Shown piece after piece: positions 1 through 11,725 of a DNA stretch of 12,900 nucleotides. Both the position numbers and the translations under genes were made by a program. The stretch's first letter is position 1. Every line of letters starts with the position of its first letter. This DNA comes from a virus: the UHGV virus genome UHGV-0200016; one strand, 5' to 3'. The notes under the pieces were generated by a model, which saw nothing but the letters and a program-made list of their open reading frames with translations, was not told the origin of the DNA and did no database searches.

Positions 1-852
1 GTTTTCAAATTGTTCCGGACTGAGGCCGCCACACCAACTGTGCCGCCGCCACCGATTGTAATCACATTCGATATAATTAAACACCGTTGCCCGCATTATT
101 TCCCGGCTGATAAAGTGTTCTCCATGGATACATTCCACTTTCAGCGAATGAAAGAAGCTTTCCACGCAGGCATTATCGTAGCAGCAACCTTTTGCGCTCA
201 TACTTCCACGCAGATTATGCCGCTTCAGTTGCGCCTGATAATCTGCTGAACAGTACTGGCCTCCACGGTCCGTGTGAACGATAACGTTCCGGGGCCTCTT
301 ACGCCGCCACAGCGCCATCTGCAGGGCATCGCAGGCCAGTTGCGCCGTCATGCGTGGCGACATTGACCAGCCAATAACGGCACGTGACCACAGGTCAATG
401 ACCACTGCCAGATACAGCCAGCCTTCATCTGTACGTAAGTACGTGATGTCTCCTGCCCACTTCTGGTTCGGGCCACTGGCGTAAAAATCCTGCTCCAACA
501 GATTTTCTGACACAGGCAGGCCGTGTGCGCGGTAGCTGACCGGGCTGAACTTCCGGGAGGCCTTTGCCCTCAGTCCCTGACGGCGCAGGCTTGCCGCCAC
601 GGTTTTTACGTTAAAGGGGTAACCCTGAGCACGCAGTTCATCCGTCAGGCGTGGGGCACCGTAACGCTGTTTTGACCGGGTAAAAGCCGCGAGGACAACG
701 CTGTCGCAGTGTTGGCGGAACTGCTGACGCGTGCTTATCCTTGTCCGCCGCTGACACCACGTATACCAGCCGCTGCGGGCCACCCGGAGCACGCGGCACA
801 TTGCTTTGATGCTGAACTCAGCCTGATGTTTTTCAATAAAGACATACTTCAT
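1..852 (-). CDS. insF: IS3 transposase OrfB (InsF), 3'-partial (last few codons and stop lie before position 1)
   Basis: Minus-strand translation from the ATG at 852-850 gives [22 protein letters not shown]... and runs to ...[10 protein letters not shown] at the window edge, matching IS3 InsF as I recall it. It overlaps the orfA stop as expected for the -1 frameshift arrangement. It is absent from the ORF track because no stop lies in the window. Confidence 0.9.
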
Positions 853-1148
853 TTCAGGCGCTTCGCGAAGTATGTCGCGGCCTTTTGGAGGATAGCCAGC
901 TCTTCATCCCGTTCTGCCAGCTGGCGTTTGAGACGTGCAATCTCGGTAGACATCTCCAGTTCACGTTCAGAAGACGTCTGCTGATTTTGCTGTTTACTGC
1001 GCCAGTTGTAGAGCTGTGATTCATACAGGCTGAGTTCACGGGCTGCGGCAGTAACACCGATGCGTTCAGCAAGCTTCAGGGCTTCACTGCGAAATTCAGG
1101 CGAATGCTGTTTACGGGGTTTTTTACTGGTTGATACTGTTTTTGTCAT
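849..1148 (-). CDS. insE: IS3 transposase OrfA (InsE), 99 aa
   Basis: ORF track 849..1157 (minus) gives [34 protein letters not shown]...[15 protein letters not shown]. The canonical protein begins at MTKTVS (ATG at 1148-1146); the track begins at an upstream GTG. HTH-type IS3-family OrfA. Confidence 0.9.
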
Positions 1149-1375: not shown

Positions 1376-2389
1376 TTACTCTACTGTGGACACTGTGTGG
1401 ACACTCTCGACCTCAGTACCACCTCTTAGCGGATTAAGAGAAATGGCGTCCTGAAGGTACTCTGGCGCAAAATGAGCGTAAACCATAGTTTGCTCAATCC
1501 GCGTGTGACCTAGTATCCGTTGTAGCGTGATAATACTTCCTCCATTAATCATGAAATGAGTGGCAAAGCTGTGCCTTAGTGCATGTGTAGCTTGCCCCAT
1601 TGGCAAATCCGGTTTTATTGCTTTCATTGTTCGTCTGAAGCGAGGGTAATCAGCATCAGGGAATAAAAAACCTCGTTTGTTATCCGCGATCATTTTGGCA
1701 ACAGCCTCTGAGATCGGGACGGTGCGTGGTTTGTTTGTTTTCGTTTTAACAAACGTGACGCGGTTATGGATGATATTTTCTGCTTTCAAACGAGCTGCTT
1801 CTCCCCAACGTGCTCCAGTACTCAGGCAAAGAATCGCAATCTTTTTGTTGTCGCCGTCAAGAGCAGCAAGCAGTAAGGCAATTTCTTCCTGCGTGAGATA
1901 GCCTGTGTCTGGTTTTTCCTCCTTAAGCCTTTTTGTCCCTCTGATAGGGTGCTCACCAAAGAATAACTCCGCTTCAATCAGGGCTGTAAACATGCCGCTA
2001 ATACATGTTAAATCACGATTGATACTCGAAGGTTTAATACCCTGACTTCTTCGGGTGGCGCAGTACTGGCTGATAAGCGATTTCGTAATTTGAAATGCGC
2101 ATGGGTCATTCGTTATTTTTGTGAAGATTTCAATTTTCCCAAGATTAGATTTCCCATGCTCTTCGTGTTTACCCTTTAAATCCCACCAGATCTGTGTCAG
2201 CTCCGACAGACGTCGCTTGTCTGTTGGTTTTGATAGCCATTCTTTATTGTGGTGGTTGTACAACGTGTATTTCTCGAAAGCGACAGCTTCGCTTTTCTTA
2301 TCAAACTTCCTACGGATGCGTTTTCCATTACGTCCAGTAGGGCGGATGTCCACTTCATATCGACCATCATCGAGTTTTTTGATTGCCAT
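1376..2389 (-). CDS. int: P2-type tyrosine integrase, 337 aa
   Basis: ORF track 337 aa: MAIKKLDDGRYEVDIRPTGRNGKRIRRKFDKK ... HALRHSFATHFMINGGSIITLQRILGHTRIEQTMVYAHF. It carries the tyrosine-recombinase R..HxxR..Y box and is close to residue-for-residue my recollection of P2 Int. Confidence 0.95.
   Translation of the reverse strand: MAIKKLDDGRYEVDIRPTGRNGKRIRRKFDKKSEAVAFEKYTLYNHHNKEWLSKPTDKRRLSELTQIWWDLKGKHEEHGKSNLGKIEIFTKITNDPCAFQITKSLISQYCATRRSQGIKPSSINRDLTCISGMFTALIEAELFFGEHPIRGTKRLKEEKPDTGYLTQEEIALLLAALDGDNKKIAILCLSTGARWGEAARLKAENIIHNRVTFVKTKTNKPRTVPISEAVAKMIADNKRGFLFPDADYPRFRRTMKAIKPDLPMGQATHALRHSFATHFMINGGSIITLQRILGHTRIEQTMVYAHFAPEYLQDAISLNPLRGGTEVESVHTVSTVE
1385..1404. promoter_or_regulatory. 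Tandem TGTGGACAC direct repeats; probable Int arm-type binding sites (P arm), inside the 3' end of int
   Basis: tgtggacac at 1385-1393 and 1396-1404, 11 bp apart. A matching pair with the same spacing lies on the other arm at 11496-11514. P2 Int arm sites are, from memory, direct repeats of roughly this consensus. Confidence 0.5.
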
Positions 2390-2504: not shown

Positions 2505-2804
2505 TTAACCAGTCTTTTGACCGGAGTGGGGCGACGTTGTTTCGTTTTGCCCAAAGTGTGCGAGAGCGGGCGCAATTTGCCCGGACTCAGGAGCGATCTG
2601 ATTGGTCATGAACCATAAAGTGTATTTGGTGAATTGTGGGGTCTGCAGGATGTTCATCATGACATCTGTTGGAGGTGTTGAACGACCACTTTCATAGTAA
2701 CTCAGCGTGCCATACGGAACCCCTGTTAAATCAGCAAGTTGTTGTCTGCTCAAATACTCTGATTTTCGCATTAAGACTATCTTCTCGCTTATCGTGTTTG
2801 ACAT
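2505..2804 (-). CDS. C: P2 immunity repressor C, 99 aa
   Basis: ORF track 99 aa: MSNTISEKIVLMRKSEYLSRQQLADLTGVPYGTLSYYESGRSTPPTDVMMNILQ... It has an HTH, sits between int and cox and is divergent from cox, as in P2. Confidence 0.9.
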   Translation of the reverse strand: MSNTISEKIVLMRKSEYLSRQQLADLTGVPYGTLSYYESGRSTPPTDVMMNILQTPQFTKYTLWFMTNQIAPESGQIAPALAHFGQNETTSPHSGQKTG

Positions 2805-2918: not shown

Positions 2919-3527
2919 ATGAGCAAGCAAGTAACACTCATGACTGATGCGATTCCTTATCAGGAGTTCGCAAAACTAATAGGAAAATCGACAGGAGCGG
3001 TTCTCGGCGCGCGTCATATTCATATCACCAGAACGACGGACTGGCGCATTGTTCCGAAAGTTCCGGTCGTGGAGCCTTTAACTTTAAAAAGCGGCATCGC
3101 CGCGCCTCGGAGTCCTGTCAATAACTGTGGAAAGCTCACCGGTGGTGATACTTCGTTACCGGCTCACACACCTTCTGAGCACGCCGCAGCAGTGCTTAAT
3201 CTGGTTGATGACGGTGTTATTGAATGGAATGAACCGGAGGTCGTGAGGGCGCTCAGGGGGGCATTAAAACACGACCTGAGAACACCAAACCGTCAGCAAA
3301 GAAACGGAAGCCCGTTAAAACCACATGAAATTGCACCATCGGCCAGACTGACCCGGTCGGAAAGAATGCAAATTACCCGTATCCGCGTTGACCTTGCTCA
3401 GAACGGTATCAGGCCGCAGCGATGGGAGCTTGAGGCGCTGGCGCGTGGCGCGACCGTAAATTATTACGGGAAATCTTTCAATTATCAGGTCGCTGATGAG
3501 TGGCCTGGATTTTTGTTACCCATTTGA
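2919..3527 (+). CDS. cox N-terminus (about 28 codons) fused in frame to an unrelated 174-codon reading frame, possibly the 3' part of an early/replication gene; probable deletion product
   Basis: ORF track 202 aa. The first 28 residues, MSKQVTLMTDAIPYQEFAKLIGKSTGAV, match P2 Cox (a 91-aa protein). From about nt 3003 the sequence departs completely (LGARHIHITRTTDW...) and continues to 3527. SD agagga lies upstream of the ATG. Confidence 0.6.
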   Translation: MSKQVTLMTDAIPYQEFAKLIGKSTGAVLGARHIHITRTTDWRIVPKVPVVEPLTLKSGIAAPRSPVNNCGKLTGGDTSLPAHTPSEHAAAVLNLVDDGVIEWNEPEVVRALRGALKHDLRTPNRQQRNGSPLKPHEIAPSARLTRSERMQITRIRVDLAQNGIRPQRWELEALARGATVNYYGKSFNYQVADEWPGFLLPI

Positions 3528-3786
3528 GTAAAAATGCAGCGTGATTTTATATGCCTTTGAATGGATTATGCGAAGCGCCTCTAAGGCAGATGAGGAGCAA
3601 TAGCATGCTGAAGTAGAAGGCTAAATTGTATTGAATCGCTAGCATGTAATTTAAAGCAGCTATTTGATTCGAGTCATAAAAGAGCATCTATTTCGGCTAA
3701 TAAAACCATTGCGAGTGACCTTTTGTCGAAGCATAATTCATCTCGAGCGAAGTCTTGCTAGTCTTTCATCGGAATGATGACAGGCG

Positions 3787-3817
3787 CAAAAAAACCACCC
3801 TGGCAGGTGGTTTTTTT
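3787..3817. terminator. Bidirectional rho-independent terminator
   Basis: aaaaaaaccaccctggcaggtggttttttt: a GC-rich hairpin (ccaccctg/caggtgg) flanked by an A-run on the 5' side and a T-run on the 3' side, so it is terminator-like on both strands. Confidence 0.6.
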
Positions 3818-3829
3818 GTTTGAAGCATA

Positions 3830-3943
3830 CTAAAGAATAATACTTACATGGATATTACTGACGTTTACTGACAAACCACTTGGACTACCATATGGATAGC
3901 CAAAGAGGGCCAGAACGAGAATGCAGTAATAGCACTTCTTCAT
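3830..3943 (-). CDS. Hypothetical small hydrophobic protein, 37 aa (below ORF-track cutoff)
   Basis: Minus-strand ATG at 3943 preceded by a strong SD (caggaggagat-ATG). Translation is MKKCYYCILVLALFGYPYGSPSGLSVNVSNIHVSIIL, with stop at 3832-3830 immediately followed by the terminator at 3787-3817. Coding status is unproven. Confidence 0.3.
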   Translation of the reverse strand: MKKCYYCILVLALFGYPYGSPSGLSVNVSNIHVSIIL

Positions 3944-4518
3944 ATCTCCTCCTGTAAGCAGAGGGCAATTTCCGCCGATATATGCGCTTCTAAGGCGGAG
4001 TTACTATTTAGCGAAGTCTTGCCCTGAAATAATGCTCTGTTTAAACGCAAAGTGATCTGGCATATCACCGAACAGAGAGCCTGAACAACACAACATATAG
4101 TATGTCGTTGTTTCTGGTTGCATTTTATGTTGTGTAATCCTGGTTTTGCATCAAGGATGTTTGAGCTTTTTTTGATATAGCTCAAAGTAAAAAGCAGAGA
4201 CTACGGATGATAAGGTATTGAAAGCAATGTAAATTTTTTAAAGTTATTGGCGGCTAAAAAATGCACGGTTTCAATATGGTGGACTTAAATAAGCAATTAA
4301 AAAAGTCATAAATATCACTAAAATCATGGTGTTACGTTTTTTTTGTGGGAGCTGCGGTGACGCTTAAGTTGATTTGTCATTAAATAAGCCGTGCATGCAA
4401 CAAGTGAATGTTTTTGCATGCGTCGGGGATGCCCGTTCCGGCTGCTTGCGGTCAGAGCTGGTGCGGATCCATAGTATCTATGCAACTGCATTAAAACCGC
4501 CACATGAAGCGGGCGGGC

Positions 4519-4537
4519 GAGGCGGGGAAAGCACTGC
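4519..4537. other. P2-type cos site (19-nt cohesive-end sequence)
   Basis: ggcgaggcggggaaagcac matches the P2/186 cohesive-end sequence as I recall it. It sits in a GC-rich island of about 165 bp (roughly 4380-4545) between AT-rich segments. Confidence 0.6.
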
Positions 4538-4694
4538 GCGCAAAATGTTCTTGAAATATTTGTGACATAAGCTAAGACACAAAATGATTGAAGGGCAGAG
4601 CAAATCCTACAGTCCTATGCTATTGTCTCATGTAATGCAGATAAGTTGAAAATTATCTTAAAATATAAGAGTAAAGACATTAAAAGGATTGGTT

Positions 4695-6956
4695 ATGAAT
4701 AATAACTCTAAGTTATTAAGCTCTATCTCGGTTGAATCTGATTTCGAGAACCTTATAAAACTATATGCAAATGAGTTATTTGGTGGTGAAACATATCTGA
4801 TCGGTGGTCCTTGGGATAATGGAAAGGATTTGGTAATAAAAAAGGGGAATAGAGAGTTAAAGCAAGCTGTACAAATATCTATTCAAGAGAAAAATATTGA
4901 AAGTAAGATTGCTCAAGATATTAAAAAAGTGGCGAAATTGGTTGATGATCATTATTACCCGCCTGTATTATATTTTTTTTGGAGTCATTCAATATCTGAG
5001 CATTTATTGGATAAGATAAGAACAAATGCTCTTAAGGAAGATTTGATTAGATTGGAGTTTTATGATGCCAAACGGATCTCTCAAGATATTACAGATAAAT
5101 ACCCAGGGTTATTGAATTACTTAATAAAAGATATACATAAGATAAGTTCTAATACTGAAGATGCAATTAACTTGCAACAAAGAGCATTTTATGAATATTT
5201 ATTGTTAAGCAAAGATAGTGCTAATTTAAAAAATGAAATAATAAAAGCTAGTATTATGTCTAATTTATATGATGGCGGGAAGTCTGCTGATGATATTCTA
5301 GAGAATCTAAAAGGTGTTAGTCTTACAAAACGTAGTTTACAGGGTAGACTGCAAAACCTAATTCATCAAAATAAAATTAGATTGAATGATGGTATATATA
5401 GCCTGTCACCAGAGGAAATTAAAAAGCTTGAGAATATAAATCTCCGTGAAATTGTCAGAAAAGAAGAGTTGTTATCAGTAATAAATAATGAGTTGCCCAG
5501 AAATACAAGTAAGAATCTGGCTGTTCAAGTTGTTGATTTAATAATAAAGGCTTATGAAGAATCAATAAATGTCCAATTAACAGAAAGTAAATTTGAGCCT
5601 CCAAAATTACAGATATTCAAAACTATAGTACATAATTTAAAGGTGTTGATACGGCAGGAATATGATTTGGATGATGAGTCTTCGGATGCTTTAGCAAAAA
5701 AGCTAATGGAGTTGGCTGGTCAAAATGACTATTTATCCGAGCATTGCTCTGCTAAATTATGTGTGAATCTTTTAAGTGATCGGAAATTAGAGAAATATAT
5801 TGAAAATAAAAATTTTTATATCTACTTTGATGCGCCTGTTCTTATTCCATATTTGATAACTCTTATGTTTGGAGATTTTGAGCTTTTTGATAAGTCGATT
5901 AAAAATATAAATTTACTGAGAGAGTGCATAAATCCCCTCAAAAATAAACATCTGAGAGTTTCTAATGAACATTTTGAAGAAACTGCAAGGCACTACTCTG
6001 AAGCTGAAAAATTAAGTCAGTTTGTAACTGAAGATTTAATTAGTCAACTTGGTGAGTCGAAAAATGTATACTTTAATGTTTATATGCGGTGGAAAAACAA
6101 ACAGCCTAAACGTACAGATTTTTACGATTTTACTTATGCTTTTCTAGGGTTGGATAAAGATGATATTTATGCGGGGTATAAGCATGACACATTTGCGCAA
6201 TGCATTCATAATTTACTAGCGTCAGCAAATATTGTTGTAATTGATAATAAAGACTCGGTGTCACAAGACTTTGTATTTAAAATAAAGCAAAAACTTAAAA
6301 GGGATTTGAATTCTTCACGTCCCGTTCGAGCCATAGAAAATGATGTTATATGTGCTGCAACTTTGAGTGATGAAACCCTACATCTTGATTCCAATGGTTA
6401 CTTCAGTACTCCCATGCTAATAACGCTTGATAGATCTCAATATCTATTGAGAAGCATAGTAAGAAATGAAAGGAGACATGCTGAATGGTTGGTTTATACC
6501 CCTCAAAGAGCAATTGAACGTCTTTCCTTGGTGGGTTTAAAAATATCATCGGAATCGTTAAAGGATGGTGTTTTAGCAACCATATCAGAAGAATATTTCT
6601 TTAAAGAAAGTTCCAGTAGTTTGATTGATACTTTGGCTATTATCATTGGAGATAATCAAGCAAGGCAAGGAGATGTTATTAGGCTTGCATCGCTTTTAAA
6701 AAGAAAGGTCAATGAGGAATCTATTGAGAATTCAGAAATTGATATTGAACACTATAATAACATTAGTTATGTGCTTCTTTTCATTCATCGTGAATTTAAA
6801 TCTGAATTTTCAAATATAATAAAAATTTTTGCTGAGGATAGTAGGCGAGATAAACTGGTTGAAGTTTTGTTATCCACTATTCAAGGAGTTTTTGATGAGA
6901 GTAAAAAGGAAATCTTGCGCTCAAATATAGGACGGTTGTTGGCTGAAATGGGATGA
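4695..6956 (+). CDS. Hypothetical protein of about 753 aa with an N-terminal restriction-endonuclease-like (Mrr-type) motif; candidate anti-phage defence protein
   Basis: ORF track 4689..6956 (755 aa from a TTG). I prefer the ATG at 4695, which has SD aagga 6 nt upstream. The gene is strongly AT-rich and Lys/Asn/Ile-rich, unlike the flanking P2 genes. Residues about 25-100 (FENLIKLYANELFGGETYLIGGPWDNGKDLVIKKGNRELKQAVQIS...PVLYFFWSHSIS) resemble the Mrr catalytic-core pattern. A hairpin terminator follows at 6973-7005. Confidence 0.85.
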   Translation: MNNNSKLLSSISVESDFENLIKLYANELFGGETYLIGGPWDNGKDLVIKKGNRELKQAVQISIQEKNIESKIAQDIKKVAKLVDDHYYPPVLYFFWSHSISEHLLDKIRTNALKEDLIRLEFYDAKRISQDITDKYPGLLNYLIKDIHKISSNTEDAINLQQRAFYEYLLLSKDSANLKNEIIKASIMSNLYDGGKSADDILENLKGVSLTKRSLQGRLQNLIHQNKIRLNDGIYSLSPEEIKKLENINLREIVRKEELLSVINNELPRNTSKNLAVQVVDLIIKAYEESINVQLTESKFEPPKLQIFKTIVHNLKVLIRQEYDLDDESSDALAKKLMELAGQNDYLSEHCSAKLCVNLLSDRKLEKYIENKNFYIYFDAPVLIPYLITLMFGDFELFDKSIKNINLLRECINPLKNKHLRVSNEHFEETARHYSEAEKLSQFVTEDLISQLGESKNVYFNVYMRWKNKQPKRTDFYDFTYAFLGLDKDDIYAGYKHDTFAQCIHNLLASANIVVIDNKDSVSQDFVFKIKQKLKRDLNSSRPVRAIENDVICAATLSDETLHLDSNGYFSTPMLITLDRSQYLLRSIVRNERRHAEWLVYTPQRAIERLSLVGLKISSESLKDGVLATISEEYFFKESSSSLIDTLAIIIGDNQARQGDVIRLASLLKRKVNEESIENSEIDIEHYNNISYVLLFIHREFKSEFSNIIKIFAEDSRRDKLVEVLLSTIQGVFDESKKEILRSNIGRLLAEMG

Positions 6957-7047: not shown

Positions 7048-8082
7048 TTAGGTATCGCAAGTATCTAGTGAGTAGTTTTTAAAGCGGATGACCTCCTGAC
7101 CGAGCCAGCCGTTTATCTCGCGGATCCTGTCCTGTAACGGGATAAGCTCATTGCGGACAAAGACCTTTGCCACTTTCTCAATATCGCCCAGTGACCCGAC
7201 GTTCTCCGGCTTGCCGCCCATCAACTGAAAGGGGATGCGGTGCGCGTCCAGTAGGTCAGCGGCGCTGGCTTTTTTGATATTAAAAAAATCGTCCTTCGTT
7301 GCGACTTCACTGAGCGGGATAATTTTAATGCCGTCGGCTTTCCCCTGTGGGGCATAGAGAAACAGATTTTTAAAGTTGTTGCGGCCTTTCGACTTCACCA
7401 TGTTTTCGCGGAGCATTTCGATATCGTTGCGATCCTGCACGGCATCAGTGACGTACATGATGTATCCGGCATGTGCGCCGTTTTCGTAATACTTGCGGCG
7501 GAACAGCGTGGCCGACTCATTCAGCCAGGCAGAGTTAAGGGCGCTGAGATATTCCGGCAGGCCGTACAACTCCTGATTAATATCCGGCTCCAGCAGGTGA
7601 AACACGGAGCCGGGCGCGAAGGCTGTCGGTTCGTTGAAGGACGGCACCCACCAGTAAACATCCTCTTCCACCCCACGGCGGGTATATTTTGCCGGTGAGG
7701 TTTCCAGTCTGATGACCTTACCGGTGGTGCTGTAACGCTTTTCCAGAAACGCATTACCAAACACCAGAAAATCCAGCACAAAGCGGCTGAAATCCTGTTG
7801 TGAAAGCCACGGATGCGGGATAAATGTCGAGGCCAGAATATTACGTTTGACGTAAATCGGTGAGCTGTGATGTACGGCAGCACGCAGGCTTTTTGCCAGA
7901 CCGGTAAAGCTGACCGGTGGCTCATACCATCTGCCGTTACTGATGCACTCGACGTAATCCAGAATGTCACGGCGGTCGAGTACCGGCACCGGCTCACCAA
8001 AGGTGAATGCCTCCATTTTCGGGGCGCTGGCGGTCATTGTTTTTGCCGCAGGTTGCGGTGTTTTCCCTTTTTTCTTGCTCAT
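7048..8082 (-). CDS. Q: P2 portal (capsid portal) protein Q, 344 aa
   Basis: ORF track 344 aa: MSKKKGKTPQPAAKTMTASAPKMEAFTFGEPVPVLDRRDILDYVECISNGRWYEPP... It matches my recollection of P2 gpQ in sequence and length, and its start overlaps the stop of the upstream P fragment (TGATG). Confidence 0.9.
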   Translation of the reverse strand: MSKKKGKTPQPAAKTMTASAPKMEAFTFGEPVPVLDRRDILDYVECISNGRWYEPPVSFTGLAKSLRAAVHHSSPIYVKRNILASTFIPHPWLSQQDFSRFVLDFLVFGNAFLEKRYSTTGKVIRLETSPAKYTRRGVEEDVYWWVPSFNEPTAFAPGSVFHLLEPDINQELYGLPEYLSALNSAWLNESATLFRRKYYENGAHAGYIMYVTDAVQDRNDIEMLRENMVKSKGRNNFKNLFLYAPQGKADGIKIIPLSEVATKDDFFNIKKASAADLLDAHRIPFQLMGGKPENVGSLGDIEKVAKVFVRNELIPLQDRIREINGWLGQEVIRFKNYSLDTCDT

Positions 8083-8360
8083 CAGTAAAACTCCAGAATG
8101 GTGGATGTCAGCGGGGTGCTGATACCGGCGGTGAGTGGCTCATTTAACAGGGCGTGCATGGTCGCCCAGGCGAGGTCGGCGTGGCTGGCTTCCTCGCTGC
8201 GGCTGGCCTCATAGGTGGCGCTGCGTCCGCTGCTGGTCATGGTCTTGCGGATAGCCATAAACGAGCTGGTGATGTCGGTGGCGCTGACGTCGTATTCCAG
8301 ACAGCCACGGCGGATAACGTCTTTTGCCTTGAGCACCATTGCGGTTTTCATTTCCGGCGT
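8082..8360 (-). pseudogene. P: 3' fragment of terminase ATPase gene P (about 90 C-terminal codons); the 5' part is deleted
   Basis: A minus-strand open frame ends at 8082 (...LTAGISTPLTSTILEFY) with its stop overlapping the Q start, as for P2 P-Q. P is about 590 aa in P2, so only the 3' end is present. Assignment rests on synteny and coupling, not on confirmed homology. The upper boundary is approximate. Confidence 0.5.
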
Positions 8361-11554: not shown

Positions 11555-11581
11555 AAAAAATAAGCCCGTGTAAGGGAGATT
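11555..11581. other. attR core (P2 att core, 27 bp)
   Basis: Exact copy of AAAAAATAAGCCCGTGTAAGGGAGATT, followed by AT-rich non-phage DNA leading into the convergent host gene. Confidence 0.75.
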
Positions 11582-11725
11582 ACACAGGCTAAGGAGGTGG
11601 TTCCTGGTACAGCTAGCATTTTATGGGTTATGTTTTTCAGCGAAACGGATGATAACCTTAATAAATGCAGCTGTATGTGATCGGTTTCTAAGAATTTTCC
11701 ATCCGGGAAAAATAATCGAAATTAA

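What the first reader, a model, noticed from the sequence alone, without database searches (positions are those of the whole stretch)
3528..4380. About 0.85 kb AT-rich segment with no long ORF where P2 carries orf91/tin/old
Seen in sequence: between the stop of the cox-fusion ORF (3527) and the GC-rich cos island there is no ORF of 100 codons or more on either strand. The segment nevertheless contains a bidirectional terminator (3787-3817), a small SD-preceded ORF (3830-3943) and short imperfect direct repeats (gcgcctctaaggcaga at 3575-3590 versus gcgcttctaaggcgga at 3984-3999; agcgaagtcttgc at 3746-3758 and again at 4010-4022). Inference: either decayed remains of a former cargo gene set or a locus encoding small RNAs or peptides. 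Long non-coding stretches are unusual in phage genomes.
Basis: partly seen in the sequence, partly recalled or inferred. Interest (0 to 1): 0.4.

Follow-up and report, generated by a model that had tools for sequence, protein, structure and literature searches.

The report
Unannotated small-RNA/small-protein toxin-antitoxin-like module
The "empty" stretch after the P2 replication gene is a compact, conserved and so far unannotated gene pair, a 37-residue hydrophobic protein and a small antisense RNA that should silence it, which also rides on Klebsiella plasmids and other phages and whose protein gene is driven by a copy of the host's anaerobic nrdDG promoter.

Summary
Window 3528-4380 has no ORF of 100 codons, is AT-rich, and holds the terminator, the small ORF and both direct repeats at the stated coordinates.

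It is not decayed cargo. About 610 bp (about 3655-4262) form a self-contained module. The module is 85-100% identical behind gene A in intact P2-like prophages of 150 of 5426 complete E. coli genomes. A more diverged form occurs in an N15-like phage-plasmid, an inovirus-like prophage and 392 plasmids, 390 of them Klebsiella. It is almost never annotated.

The module has these parts:
- A promoter block on the minus strand that matches the E. coli nrdDG promoter at 63 of 67 positions, including its FNR sites.
- A structured 5'UTR of about 171 nt.
- A 37-codon ORF under purifying selection (dN/dS 0.12-0.38).
- A shared bidirectional terminator.
- A convergent sRNA of about 74 nt with its own conserved sigma-70 promoter.

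The other copy lies in the toxin 5'UTR, so the two RNAs are complementary.

My best reading is a new family of type I toxin-antitoxin-like addiction modules with the architecture of par of plasmid pAD1. Transcription, toxicity and FNR control are all inferred and have not been shown.

The parts
3528..3654 (+). P2-lineage-specific spacer between the gene A stop codon and the module, probably the 3' UTR of gene A. It holds the first copy of the 16-nt repeat (3575-3590).
   Evidence: It is conserved only among P2-like prophages and absent from the plasmid and N15-like copies. The 46-aa ORF inside it is broken by stop codons in other lineages.
3664..3677 (.). Conserved TTGAT-N4-GTCAT motif about 73 bp upstream of the predicted sRNA start. 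It may be a weak FNR-type site or the edge of the module.
   Evidence: TTGATT is conserved at this position in 7 of 9 lineages examined. Its function was not tested.
3709..3737 (+). Predicted sigma-70 promoter of the sRNA: TTGCGA, 17-nt spacer, CATAAT.
   Evidence: Found by the promoter scan. In every lineage with an intact module that was scanned, both hexamers and the 17-nt spacing are conserved while the spacer sequence varies.
3744..3817 (+). Predicted antitoxin-like sRNA of about 74 nt: 5' single-stranded seed, central hairpin, intrinsic terminator.
   Evidence: Covariance model hit of 104 bits; every full module in the loci searched was found at 63-106 bits. In the central hairpin 7 of 9 pairs show compensatory changes and 94% of cells are paired. 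Folding z-score is -4.5.
3746..3758 (+). sRNA seed AGCGAAGUCUUGC, which is copy 1 of the 13-nt direct repeat.
   Evidence: It is invariant in every module. It is complementary to the minus-strand transcript of 4010-4022. Duplex prediction always places the sRNA 5' end on this target.
3787..3818 (.). Bidirectional intrinsic terminator shared by the two convergent transcripts.
   Evidence: 13-nt arms, 100% complementary, flanked by A7 and T7. It is nearly identical in all lineages.
3830..3943 (-). 37-codon gene for a small hydrophobic protein, MKKCYYCILVLALFGYPYGSPSGLSVNVSNIHVSIIL (the putative toxin).
   Evidence: Of 20 distinct nucleotide versions, 19 have 37 codons and one has 38. Variable sites by codon position are 19, 13 and 29. 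dN/dS is 0.12-0.38. The SD AGGAGG is at 3953-3948.
3944..4114 (-). Structured 5' UTR of the small-protein mRNA, about 171 nt. It contains hairpin SL2 (4077-4035), the target hairpin, hairpin SL3 (3999-3971) and the anti-SD tract CCCUCU (3965-3960).
   Evidence: RNAalifold consensus structure: 98% of cells paired against 36-60% with slid partners, and 4 pairs with compensatory changes. The whole-mRNA folding z-score is -3.3. The 5' end is inferred from homology to nrdDG.
4010..4022 (-). sRNA target in the 5' UTR, GCAAGACUUCGCU, which is copy 2 of the 13-nt repeat. It ends 67 nt upstream of the AUG.
   Evidence: Across lineages the core of the target varies only by transitions that give G-U pairs with the invariant seed. 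In the window lineage one further difference (A for C) at the edge of the repeat shortens the pairing. In L073 the DNA between the two repeat copies has been deleted.
4122..4127 (-). Predicted -10 hexamer TAAAAT of the small-protein gene.
   Evidence: TA[AG]AAT is conserved in the eight module lineages compared and aligns with the -10 of the nrdDG promoter.
4141..4185 (-). Two FNR-box positions, 31 bp apart as in nrdDG. Site-2, TTGAGCTATATCAA (4185-4172), is intact. Site-1, TTGATGCAAAACCA (4154-4141), has a degenerate second half in this lineage.
   Evidence: The block is almost identical to the published E. coli nrdDG promoter 54-mer, whose FNR sites lie at -64.5 and -33.5 (PMC10245656; alignment).
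4145..4262 (-). Block homologous to the chromosomal treC-nrdD intergenic (nrdDG promoter) region.
   Evidence: A 121-nt local alignment to E. coli K-12, with 63 of 67 identical positions in the core. The first clue was a 65-nt match to the Salmonella nrdD upstream region.
4263..4380 (.). Variable junction between the module and the cos region. It is not part of the conserved module.
   Evidence: Conservation between P2-type lineages ends at about 4245-4290.

Best explanation
Window ~3655-4262 is a self-contained, horizontally mobile two-gene module of the type I toxin-antitoxin kind.

The minus strand is read from a promoter copied from the host nrdDG operon, which carries FNR sites. It gives an mRNA of about 330 nt with a structured 5' UTR of about 171 nt, a Shine-Dalgarno sequence that is largely base-paired, and a 37-codon ORF for a small hydrophobic protein.

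The plus strand is read from a conserved sigma-70 promoter and gives an sRNA of about 74 nt that converges on the same bidirectional terminator.

The 13-17 nt at the 5' end of the sRNA are complementary to the 5' UTR about 65 nt upstream of the AUG. The two RNAs are also perfectly complementary across the roughly 31-nt terminator.

I infer the following:
- The sRNA pairs with the mRNA and blocks its translation and/or triggers its decay.
- The protein damages the inner membrane when it is made.
- The pair stabilises its carrier (prophage, phage-plasmid or plasmid), or acts as an abortive-infection switch in the P2 defence hotspot.
- mRNA synthesis rises under anaerobiosis through FNR.

Shown here: conservation, protein-coding selection, RNA structure covariation, complementarity, promoter homology and distribution on mobile elements.

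Inferred only: that both RNAs are made, that pairing represses, that the protein is toxic, and that FNR (and possibly NrdR) regulates it.
For: Distribution:
- 150 of 5426 complete E. coli genomes, always chromosomal.
- The module follows the stop codon of an intact gene A in intact prophages and phage records.
- It lies in an N15-like contig between a 1383-aa ORF and a 618-aa ORF that I read as RepA-like and protelomerase-like from their size and the N15 gene order.
- It is found in 392 plasmids, 390 of them Klebsiella.
- In Kluyvera it lies in a contig whose neighbouring ORFs look inovirus-like by eye.
- One contig carries two copies 2.9 kb apart, and one contig has a deletion between the repeats.

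Small ORF: the length is kept, third codon positions vary most, and dN/dS is 0.12-0.38. All other small ORFs in the segment are broken in some lineage.

sRNA: the promoter hexamers and the 17-nt spacing are conserved over a variable spacer. The central hairpin covaries, with 7 of 9 pairs showing compensatory changes. The z-score is -4.5.

Pairing: the seed is invariant and the core of the target changes only to G-U pairs. The best predicted duplex is always at this site, and 0-1 of 60 shuffles do as well.

5' UTR structure and the anti-SD/SD helix.

Promoter: 63 of 67 positions identical to the nrdD promoter of E. coli K-12. The FNR sites of that promoter are documented in PMC10245656.

Architecture: convergent promoters, a bidirectional terminator, direct repeats and a sequestered SD, as described for par of pAD1 (PMC7472228).
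Against: - There are no expression data. I found no transcriptome that covers a carrier strain; pKPN3 of MGH 78578 lacks the module.
- Toxicity is not tested, and the peptide matches no known toxin family.
- The hydrophobic stretch is only about 12-13 residues, closer to a signal-peptide core than to a full transmembrane helix. The single-sequence AlphaFold model is only moderately confident (pLDDT 70).
- In the window lineage the continuous seed pairing is only 13 bp.
- FNR site-1 is half-degenerate in the P2 lineage.
- A test of whether blocking the target closes the SD gave inconsistent results across lineages, so the step at which repression acts is open.
Confidence: 0.6

Rival explanations
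1. The pair is an sRNA-regulated accessory ("moron") gene rather than a toxin-antitoxin system. On this reading the 37-aa protein is a harmless small membrane or exported peptide. It could, for example, be a signal peptide followed by an amphipathic 15-aa tail with a role in anaerobic growth or in exclusion of other elements. The sRNA would simply tune its level.
For: The N-terminus looks like a signal peptide: MKK or MNR, then about 12 hydrophobic residues, then the conserved GYPxGSxSG. The nrdDG-type promoter suggests a physiological, anaerobic role. There is no similarity to any toxin family.
Against: The module is carried by four unrelated kinds of mobile element, occurs in duplicate copies, and has lost exactly the ORF and sRNA body in one remnant. 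These are typical of addiction modules. The tight multi-layer repression (a paired SD plus an antisense RNA) is characteristic of toxic products.
Confidence: 0.25
2. The sRNA is mainly a trans-acting regulator of host genes, and its complementarity to the neighbouring mRNA is secondary.
For: The sRNA has a free 5' seed, a hairpin and a long U-tailed terminator, as Hfq-dependent sRNAs do.
Against: In all lineages the seed is always accompanied by its target in cis at a fixed distance. Target changes keep the pairing. I did not search for host targets.
Confidence: 0.08
3. The segment is decayed remains of former cargo genes such as old, tin or orf91.
For: It occupies the old/tin position and lacks long ORFs.
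Against: It is conserved at 85-100% behind an intact gene A in intact phages. It is present as a unit on plasmids. The small ORF is under purifying selection. There is no match to any protein family.
Confidence: 0.02
4. The segment is a cis-acting DNA element of P2, for example for packaging, replication or a late promoter.
For: It lies next to cos and gene A.
Against: The same module occurs on IncF plasmids, an N15-like element and an inovirus-like element that share neither cos nor gene A. In several P2-like phages cargo genes separate it from cos.
Confidence: 0.02

Closest known systems
par (Fst / RNA I-RNA II) of Enterococcus faecalis plasmid pAD1, and par-like loci of Firmicutes
   Same: Convergent promoters; a shared bidirectional intrinsic terminator that makes the two 3' ends complementary; DNA direct repeats read in opposite directions that give a second region of complementarity; a Shine-Dalgarno sequence paired inside the mRNA; a toxin of about 33-37 aa; carriage on plasmids and phages (PMC7472228, compared).
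   Different: There is one repeat pair, not two (DRa and DRb). The target lies about 65 nt upstream of the AUG rather than over the translation start. The peptide lacks the charged C-terminal tail of Fst and does not match the Pfam or NCBIfam libraries, which I assume include the Fst/Ldr models. The hosts are Enterobacteriaceae. The promoter is nrdDG-derived.
timP/TimR (ryfA locus) of Salmonella and other enterobacteria
   Same: [quoted passage not shown]
   Different: TimR is divergent and upstream, whereas here the sRNA is convergent and downstream. The Rfam ryfA model (RF00126), which covers the timP RNA, does not match at E <= 5. timPR is a core chromosomal locus, whereas this module is on mobile elements.
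zorO/orzO, tisB/istR-1, shoB/ohsC and ralR/ralA (E. coli type I systems with short trans-type complementarity)
   Same: A short seed of 13-17 nt, against 16-21 nt in those systems, pairs with the toxin 5' UTR rather than with a long cis-antisense overlap (RalA 16 nt: PMC4041452; the other figures are from my own knowledge).
   Different: Those gene pairs are divergent or tandem and do not share a terminator. There is no sequence match to their toxins. The OrzO-P Rfam model gave only 20 bits against a gathering score of 60.
nrdDG promoter of E. coli and Salmonella
   Same: 63 of 67 identical positions to E. coli K-12 in the core; FNR site-2; the 31-bp site spacing; the -10 hexamer; the first ~25 nt of the leader.
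   Different: It drives a 37-codon gene on a mobile element, not a ribonucleotide reductase. In the P2 lineage the stretch between site-1 and the -10, where the NrdR box 1 of nrdDG lies, has been replaced.

Membership tests
Type I toxin-antitoxin system (generic definition) | Small (<60 aa) hydrophobic protein gene | tested here: met
   A 37-aa ORF under purifying selection, with a hydrophobic N-terminal half.
Type I toxin-antitoxin system (generic definition) | Adjacent gene for a small RNA complementary to the toxin mRNA | tested here: met
   Predicted sRNA at 3744-3817 with a conserved promoter, a covarying hairpin and a terminator. There are 13-17 nt of seed complementarity and about 31 nt of terminator overlap. 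Transcription itself was not observed.
Type I toxin-antitoxin system (generic definition) | The protein is toxic when expressed, and the RNA neutralises it by blocking translation or stability | not testable with these tools
   This needs induction and co-expression experiments.
par/Fst family (Fst/Ldr superfamily) | Architecture: convergent promoters, bidirectional terminator, direct repeats, SD-sequestering stem | tested here: met
   compared with the description in PMC7472228.
par/Fst family (Fst/Ldr superfamily) | Toxin sequence: Fst-type hydrophobic domain with the PXXXG(C) motif and a charged C-terminal tail; a match to the Fst or Ldr profiles | tested here: not met
   No Pfam or NCBIfam hit at E <= 0.1. 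I assume, but did not verify, that these libraries include the Fst/Ldr models. The C-terminus is uncharged (SVNVSNIHVSIIL).
timP/TimR (ryfA) | mRNA matches Rfam ryfA (RF00126), and the sRNA is divergent and upstream | tested here: not met
   No RF00126 hit at E <= 5 on the window or on the Klebsiella copy. The sRNA is convergent and downstream.
hok/sok, ldr/rdl, ibs/sib, tisB/istR, shoB/ohsC, zorO/orzO, dinQ/agrB | The toxin matches the family profile, or the antitoxin matches the Rfam model | tested here: not met
   No Pfam, NCBIfam, PHROGs or PADLOC family. I assume these libraries carry the toxin models. All Rfam matches are far below gathering score and centred on the terminator.
nrdDG-type FNR-activated promoter | Two FNR boxes centred at -64.5 and -33.5, 31 bp apart, upstream of TAAAAT | tested here: met
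   Site-2 is intact and site-1 is half-conserved in the window but intact in the plasmid and N15-like copies. The spacing is 31 bp. 63 of 67 positions are identical to E. coli K-12. FNR binding and activation were not tested.
P2 gpA-gpQ defence hotspot cargo (Rousset et al. 2022) | Located between gpA and gpQ next to cos, and variable between phages | tested here: met
   The position is confirmed. The module is present in only a subset of P2-like prophages. Anti-phage activity was not tested.

The most novel reading that the evidence does not exclude
The module may be a stress-sensing suicide or defence switch that has hijacked the host's nrdDG control region. The small membrane toxin would then be produced when FNR is active and NrdR repression is lifted, that is, under anaerobiosis combined with dNTP or replication stress such as a competing phage infection causes. 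The constitutive sRNA would set the threshold. The promoter tracks the host's own nrdD promoter (E. coli-type in E. coli prophages, Salmonella/Klebsiella-type elsewhere). This suggests repeated recombination with the chromosome to stay tuned to the local regulators.
Probability: 0.12. Interest if true: 0.8.

Novelty: new member of a known kind. Interest (0 to 1): 0.6.

Why it matters
**Annotation.** A conserved 0.6-kb unit is present in about 3% of complete E. coli genomes and in hundreds of clinically relevant Klebsiella IncF-type plasmids. Annotation pipelines do not see it. A library of 1.84 billion protein representatives holds only six members of the peptide family, none of them named in the sources searched.

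**Plasmid and prophage stability.** If the module is an addiction module, it adds a maintenance function to resistance and virulence plasmids. It also adds an RNA-based component to the P2 defence hotspot, which has so far been surveyed by protein content (my reading of Rousset et al. 2022).

**Evolution of regulation.** The capture of a host anaerobic and nucleotide-stress promoter by a mobile toxin gene would be a clear case of a mobile element wiring itself into host regulation. It gives directly testable predictions with fnr and nrdR mutants and with anaerobic shifts.

**Architecture.** It would place the par(pAD1)-type RNA architecture, described mainly in Firmicutes, in Enterobacteriaceae.

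Tried and rejected
- **Known RNA families.** Three Rfam searches (whole window, the module alone, the Klebsiella copy) gave only sub-threshold hits on the terminator hairpin: RNAI, Phe_leader and OrzO-P at 20-26 bits against gathering scores of 47-60.
- **Known protein families.** Pfam, NCBIfam, PADLOC and PHROGs gave nothing for the peptide. The word-indexed protein search needed a query of at least 40 aa. With a padded query it found 2 proteins. Full HMMER against 1.84 billion representatives found 6 family members and 2 spurious long proteins.
- **Other ORFs.** The 46-aa, 81-aa and 39-aa minus-strand ORFs and the 37-aa TTG plus-strand ORF are interrupted by stops or a 2-nt indel in other lineages.
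- **The 16-nt repeat (3575 and 3984).** It is real in this lineage but absent from the E. coli W lineage, and its first copy lies outside the module. I did not assign it a role.
- **Expression data.** The Klebsiella MGH 78578 transcriptome and RIL-seq study looked usable, but its plasmid pKPN3 lacks the module. pKPN4 to pKPN7 were not checked.
- **MAFFT alignment of the sRNA.** RNAalifold on the MAFFT alignment missed the central hairpin, because the stems differ too much to align by sequence. A covariance-model alignment resolved it, with the caveat that such an alignment leans towards the model's structure.
- **SD switch.** The idea that sRNA binding frees an anti-SD tract and closes the SD was tested by constrained partition-function folding. 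It held for the window (SD unpaired probability 0.40 to 0.09) but not consistently across 11 lineages.
- **First genome contigs pattern.** It found nothing. One of the two hits of the second pattern (L048) was a chance match inside a GC-rich gene.
- **Literature.** Searches found no description of this module.
Full report
**Setting**

The window is 100% identical to the chromosome of E. coli strain 1218KP at the yegR-ogrK-cyaR locus. It is a heavily deleted P2-like prophage. In order it contains:
- the integrase gene (1376-2389, minus strand);
- the C repressor gene (2505-2804, minus strand);
- an ORF (2919-3527) whose first 29 residues are Cox, while PGAP annotates 3000-3527 as the C-terminal remnant of the replication endonuclease gpA;
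- the segment in question;
- the 19-nt P2 cos sequence at 4516-4534 (the sequence itself is recalled from memory, but it coincides with the physical end of the linear record OQ383618);
- a 755-aa low-GC ORF;
- the portal gene Q, a terminase stump, tail genes and ogrK;
- CyaR (Rfam, 100.7 bits).

**Check of the observation**

- No ORF reaches 100 codons. The longest is 81 aa with a TTG start.
- GC is 0.34-0.42.
- The inverted repeat 3787-3799 / 3806-3818 is perfect, with A7 before and T7 after, so it can terminate transcription in both directions.
- The 37-codon ORF 3943-3830 has AGGAGG 4 nt upstream of its ATG.
- Both direct repeats exist.

**The segment is conserved, not decayed**

Megablast finds the 853 bp in 150 of 5426 complete E. 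coli genomes, always on the chromosome, in identity classes of about 99%, 93%, 89% and 85%. It also finds three phage records. In the intact prophages and phages that I opened, the segment begins at the stop codon of a full-length gene A (2277 bp). It is followed either by cos or by various cargo genes and then cos. Nothing is annotated in it, except a "hypothetical protein" for the 37-aa ORF in one phage record. A multiple alignment shows conservation from 3528 to about 4245-4290 and unrelated sequence beyond.

**The core is a mobile unit of about 610 bp**

A pattern scan of IMG/VR returned 31 loci. One of them (L017) is not P2-like. There the unit lies between a 1383-aa ORF and a 618-aa ORF, which I read as RepA-like and protelomerase-like from their size and from the N15 gene order as I remember it. 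It is 72% identical to the window over 3698-4198.

A tblastn search with the peptide found full-length 37-codon matches (55-65% identity) in 392 of 72,556 plasmids. Of these, 390 are Klebsiella and 2 Enterobacter, and 332 are typed as conjugative. None was annotated in the listed records.

Further scans added Kluyvera georgiana and 32 metagenome contigs. In Kluyvera the neighbouring ORFs look inovirus-like by eye, resembling a Zot-type ATPase and a gpII-type replication protein.

Aligned in the sense of the small ORF, all copies share the same order and spacing of elements over window ~3655-4262.

**The small ORF is a real gene**

Among 20 distinct nucleotide versions, 19 have exactly 37 codons and one has 38. 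Variable sites fall 19, 13 and 29 on codon positions 1, 2 and 3. Pairwise dN/dS between lineages is 0.12-0.38.

The consensus is M-[KN]-[KR]-x-x-[YL]-C-I-[LI]-[VL]-L-[AT]-L-[FL]-G-Y-P-x-[GD]-[SGN]-[PQ]-S-G-[LW]-S-x-x-[VI]-[SN]-[NH]-[IV]-x-[VI]-[SN]-[IF]-x-[LM]. This reads as:
- a positively charged start;
- about 12 hydrophobic residues;
- a conserved GYPxGSxSG turn;
- a tail of alternating polar and hydrophobic residues.

A single-sequence AlphaFold model gives two helices (residues 3-13 and 22-36) at pLDDT 70. I treat this as weak evidence.

All other small ORFs in the segment are interrupted in some lineage.

The peptide matches no Pfam, NCBIfam, PADLOC or PHROGs family. It is almost absent from protein databases. 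The word-indexed search of 5.8 billion proteins returned 2 entries. Full HMMER against 1.84 billion representatives found 6 family members.

**The sRNA**

On the plus strand, TTGCGA-17 nt-CATAAT (3709-3737) is a predicted promoter. In every lineage with an intact module that was scanned, both hexamers and the 17-nt spacing are kept while the spacer sequence differs. That pattern is the signature of a working promoter.

Transcription would start near 3744 and end at the terminator, giving about 74 nt:
- a free 5' seed, GAGCGAAGUCUUG, invariant everywhere;
- a central hairpin;
- the terminator hairpin.

The central hairpin has different stem sequences in different lineages but always forms at the same place. 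On a covariance-model alignment of 15 distinct sequences, 7 of its 9 pairs show changes on both sides and 94% of cells are paired. When partners are slid, 49-66% of cells of the whole structure are paired. That alignment is fitted to the model, so these counts lean towards the structure. The window sRNA folds with z = -4.5.

**Complementarity: the meaning of the 13-nt repeat**

Both copies of AGCGAAGTCTTGC are on the plus strand. The copy at 3746-3758 is the sRNA seed. The copy at 4010-4022 lies in the 5' UTR of the minus-strand mRNA, so the two RNAs are complementary there.

Continuous pairing is 13 bp in the window lineage, about 15-17 bp in the E. coli W lineage and 17 bp in the Klebsiella plasmids. 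The core of the target varies in only two ways across lineages: GGCAAGGCUUCGCUC and GGUAAGACUUCGCUC. Both are transitions that replace a Watson-Crick pair with a G-U pair against the invariant seed. In the window lineage a further difference (A for C) at the 3' edge of the repeat accounts for its shorter pairing.

Duplex prediction puts the sRNA 5' end on this site in all 8 lineages tested, ending about 65 nt upstream of the AUG. Only 0-1 of 60 shuffled sRNAs do as well.

The two transcripts also overlap over the roughly 31-nt terminator.

One metagenome contig (L073) has lost exactly the DNA between the two repeat copies, that is, the ORF, the terminator and the sRNA body. Another contig (L069) carries two different copies 2.9 kb apart.

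The 16-nt repeat (3575 and 3984) is different in nature. Its second copy is the 5' arm and loop of hairpin SL3. Its first copy lies in the P2-specific spacer outside the module and is not conserved in the E. coli W lineage. I give it no role.

**The 5' UTR**

RNAalifold on 13 diverse sequences predicts the following:
- a 13-bp hairpin, SL2 (4077-4035);
- a small hairpin that presents part of the target in its loop;
- hairpin SL3 (3999-3971), with G-C, A-U and U-A variants at one pair;
- a helix between a C-rich tract (3965-3960) and the Shine-Dalgarno sequence.

In this structure 98% of cells are paired, against 36-60% for slid partners, and four pairs show compensatory changes. The full mRNA folds with z = -3.3.

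The SD is predicted to be mostly paired in all lineages. Whether sRNA binding closes it further is not consistent between lineages. The repression step could therefore be a standby-site block, RNase III cleavage or a structural switch.

**The promoter of the small-protein gene is a copy of the nrdDG promoter**

A weak blastn match of window 4145-4209 to Salmonella chromosomes turned out to lie in the treC-nrdD intergenic region. The published 54-bp E. coli nrdDG promoter fragment is 5'-TACTTTGAGCTACATCAAAAAAAGCTCAAACATCCTTGATGCAAAGCACTATAT. It has FNR site-2 at -64.5 and site-1 at -33.5 (PMC10245656). The minus strand of the window reads TACTTTGAGCTATATCAAAAAAAGCTCAAACATCCTTGATGCAAAACCAGGATT.

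The local alignment to E. coli K-12 covers 121 nt (window 4262-4145). In the 67-nt core the window shares 63 of 67 positions with the K-12 nrdD promoter. This is more than with the module promoters of other host genera (44-51 of 67). Those promoters in turn resemble the Salmonella nrdD promoter more (53-57 of 67) than the E. coli one (47-54 of 67).

The homology continues through the -10 (TAAAAT, 4127-4122) to about +25 and then stops. By this homology the mRNA starts near 4114.

FNR site-2 is reported as necessary and sufficient for nrdDG activation (Roca et al. 2008, as summarised in PMC10245656). It is intact in the window (4185-4172). Site-1 has lost its second half in the P2 lineage but is intact in the plasmid and N15-like copies.

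The nrdDG promoter also carries NrdR boxes (PMC2892513). In the P2 lineage the stretch where NrdR box 1 lies is replaced, and a box-2-like ATATGTTGT is kept. I did not score NrdR boxes formally.

**Comparison with known systems**

The architecture consists of convergent promoters, a shared bidirectional terminator, direct repeats read in opposite directions and a paired SD. This is the architecture described for par of pAD1 and its relatives (PMC7472228). However, the peptide is not an Fst/Ldr protein, and the target is upstream of the start region rather than over it.

Functionally the module resembles timP/TimR: a 38-aa signal-peptide-bearing toxin, a long 5' UTR and an sRNA pairing in the UTR (PMC7667032). 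However, the gene order differs and the Rfam ryfA model does not match.

The location is the gpA-gpQ hotspot of P2-like phages (Rousset et al. 2022). Full-text searches found no description of this module.

**Verdict**

The "decayed cargo" reading is wrong. The "small RNA or peptide locus" reading is right and can be stated precisely.

The most likely function is a type I toxin-antitoxin-like addiction or stress module of a new sequence family (confidence about 0.6). I have higher confidence (about 0.8) in the narrower claim that this is an sRNA gene and a small-protein gene linked by antisense pairing. Transcription, repression, toxicity and FNR control all remain to be shown.

Noticed in passing
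window 4689-6956 (+): A 755-aa ORF with very low GC (about 0.30) lies between cos and the portal gene Q, inside the P2 gpA-gpQ defence hotspot. It has no Pfam, NCBIfam, PADLOC or PHROGs match and PGAP calls it hypothetical. It is a candidate uncharacterised defence or accessory gene.
   Followed up: partly
window 11558-11643 (-): CyaR (RyeE) sRNA, a full-length Rfam match at 100.7 bits. It marks the yegQ/trhP-ogrK attachment region at the right end of the prophage.
   Followed up: no
window 1-1148, 2919-3527, 8082-8351: The prophage is a remnant. An IS3 element abuts the integrase end. Cox residues 1-29 are fused in frame to the last ~175 residues of gpA, so the early operon from cox to most of gene A is deleted. 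Only a stump of the large terminase remains, joined to baseplate genes. The sRNA/small-ORF module has nevertheless stayed intact.
   Followed up: partly
E. coli RefSeq assemblies, hits H11, H50-H54, H58, H68, H73-H75, H78: In many complete E. coli assemblies the match starts at record position 2278. Their chromosome therefore begins exactly at the start of the P2-like gene A (2277 bp). The assemblies were presumably rotated by software that took the phage replication gene for a replicon start.
   Followed up: no
L073 (metagenome contig OWPP01003510): A natural deletion variant. The 5' UTR runs up to the target repeat and is joined directly to the sRNA promoter side. This is as expected from recombination between the two 13-17 nt direct repeats, and it removes the ORF, the terminator and the sRNA body.
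   Followed up: yes
L069 (Ga0268256_1001162), matches at 3674-3705 and 6595-6626: Two different copies of the module lie 2.9 kb apart on one contig. Their peptides are MNRWCLC... and MNRVCLC.... Multi-copy type I toxin loci show the same pattern.
   Followed up: partly
The copy at 3984 is the 5' arm and loop of UTR hairpin SL3. The copy at 3575 lies in the gene A 3' spacer. If gene A transcripts read through to the terminator, they would carry a second stretch complementary to the small-protein mRNA. The repeat is present only in some P2 lineages.
   Followed up: partly
window 3664-3677: A conserved TTGAT-N4-GTCAT motif lies about 73 bp upstream of the predicted sRNA start. It matches the FNR consensus at 8 of 10 positions, so the sRNA promoter might also respond to oxygen.
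   Followed up: no
module promoters versus L083 (E. coli K-12) and L082 (Salmonella): The nrdDG-like promoter of the module resembles the nrdD promoter of the host genus more than it resembles the promoters of modules from other genera. This suggests recombination with the chromosome or host-specific tuning.
   Followed up: partly
L049 (Kluyvera georgiana NZ_LXEU01000048): Here the module lies next to ORFs that by eye look like an inovirus set: a Zot-like assembly ATPase, a gpII-like replication protein and a secretin-like protein. That would be a fourth kind of carrier element. Its peptide has 38 residues.
   Followed up: partly
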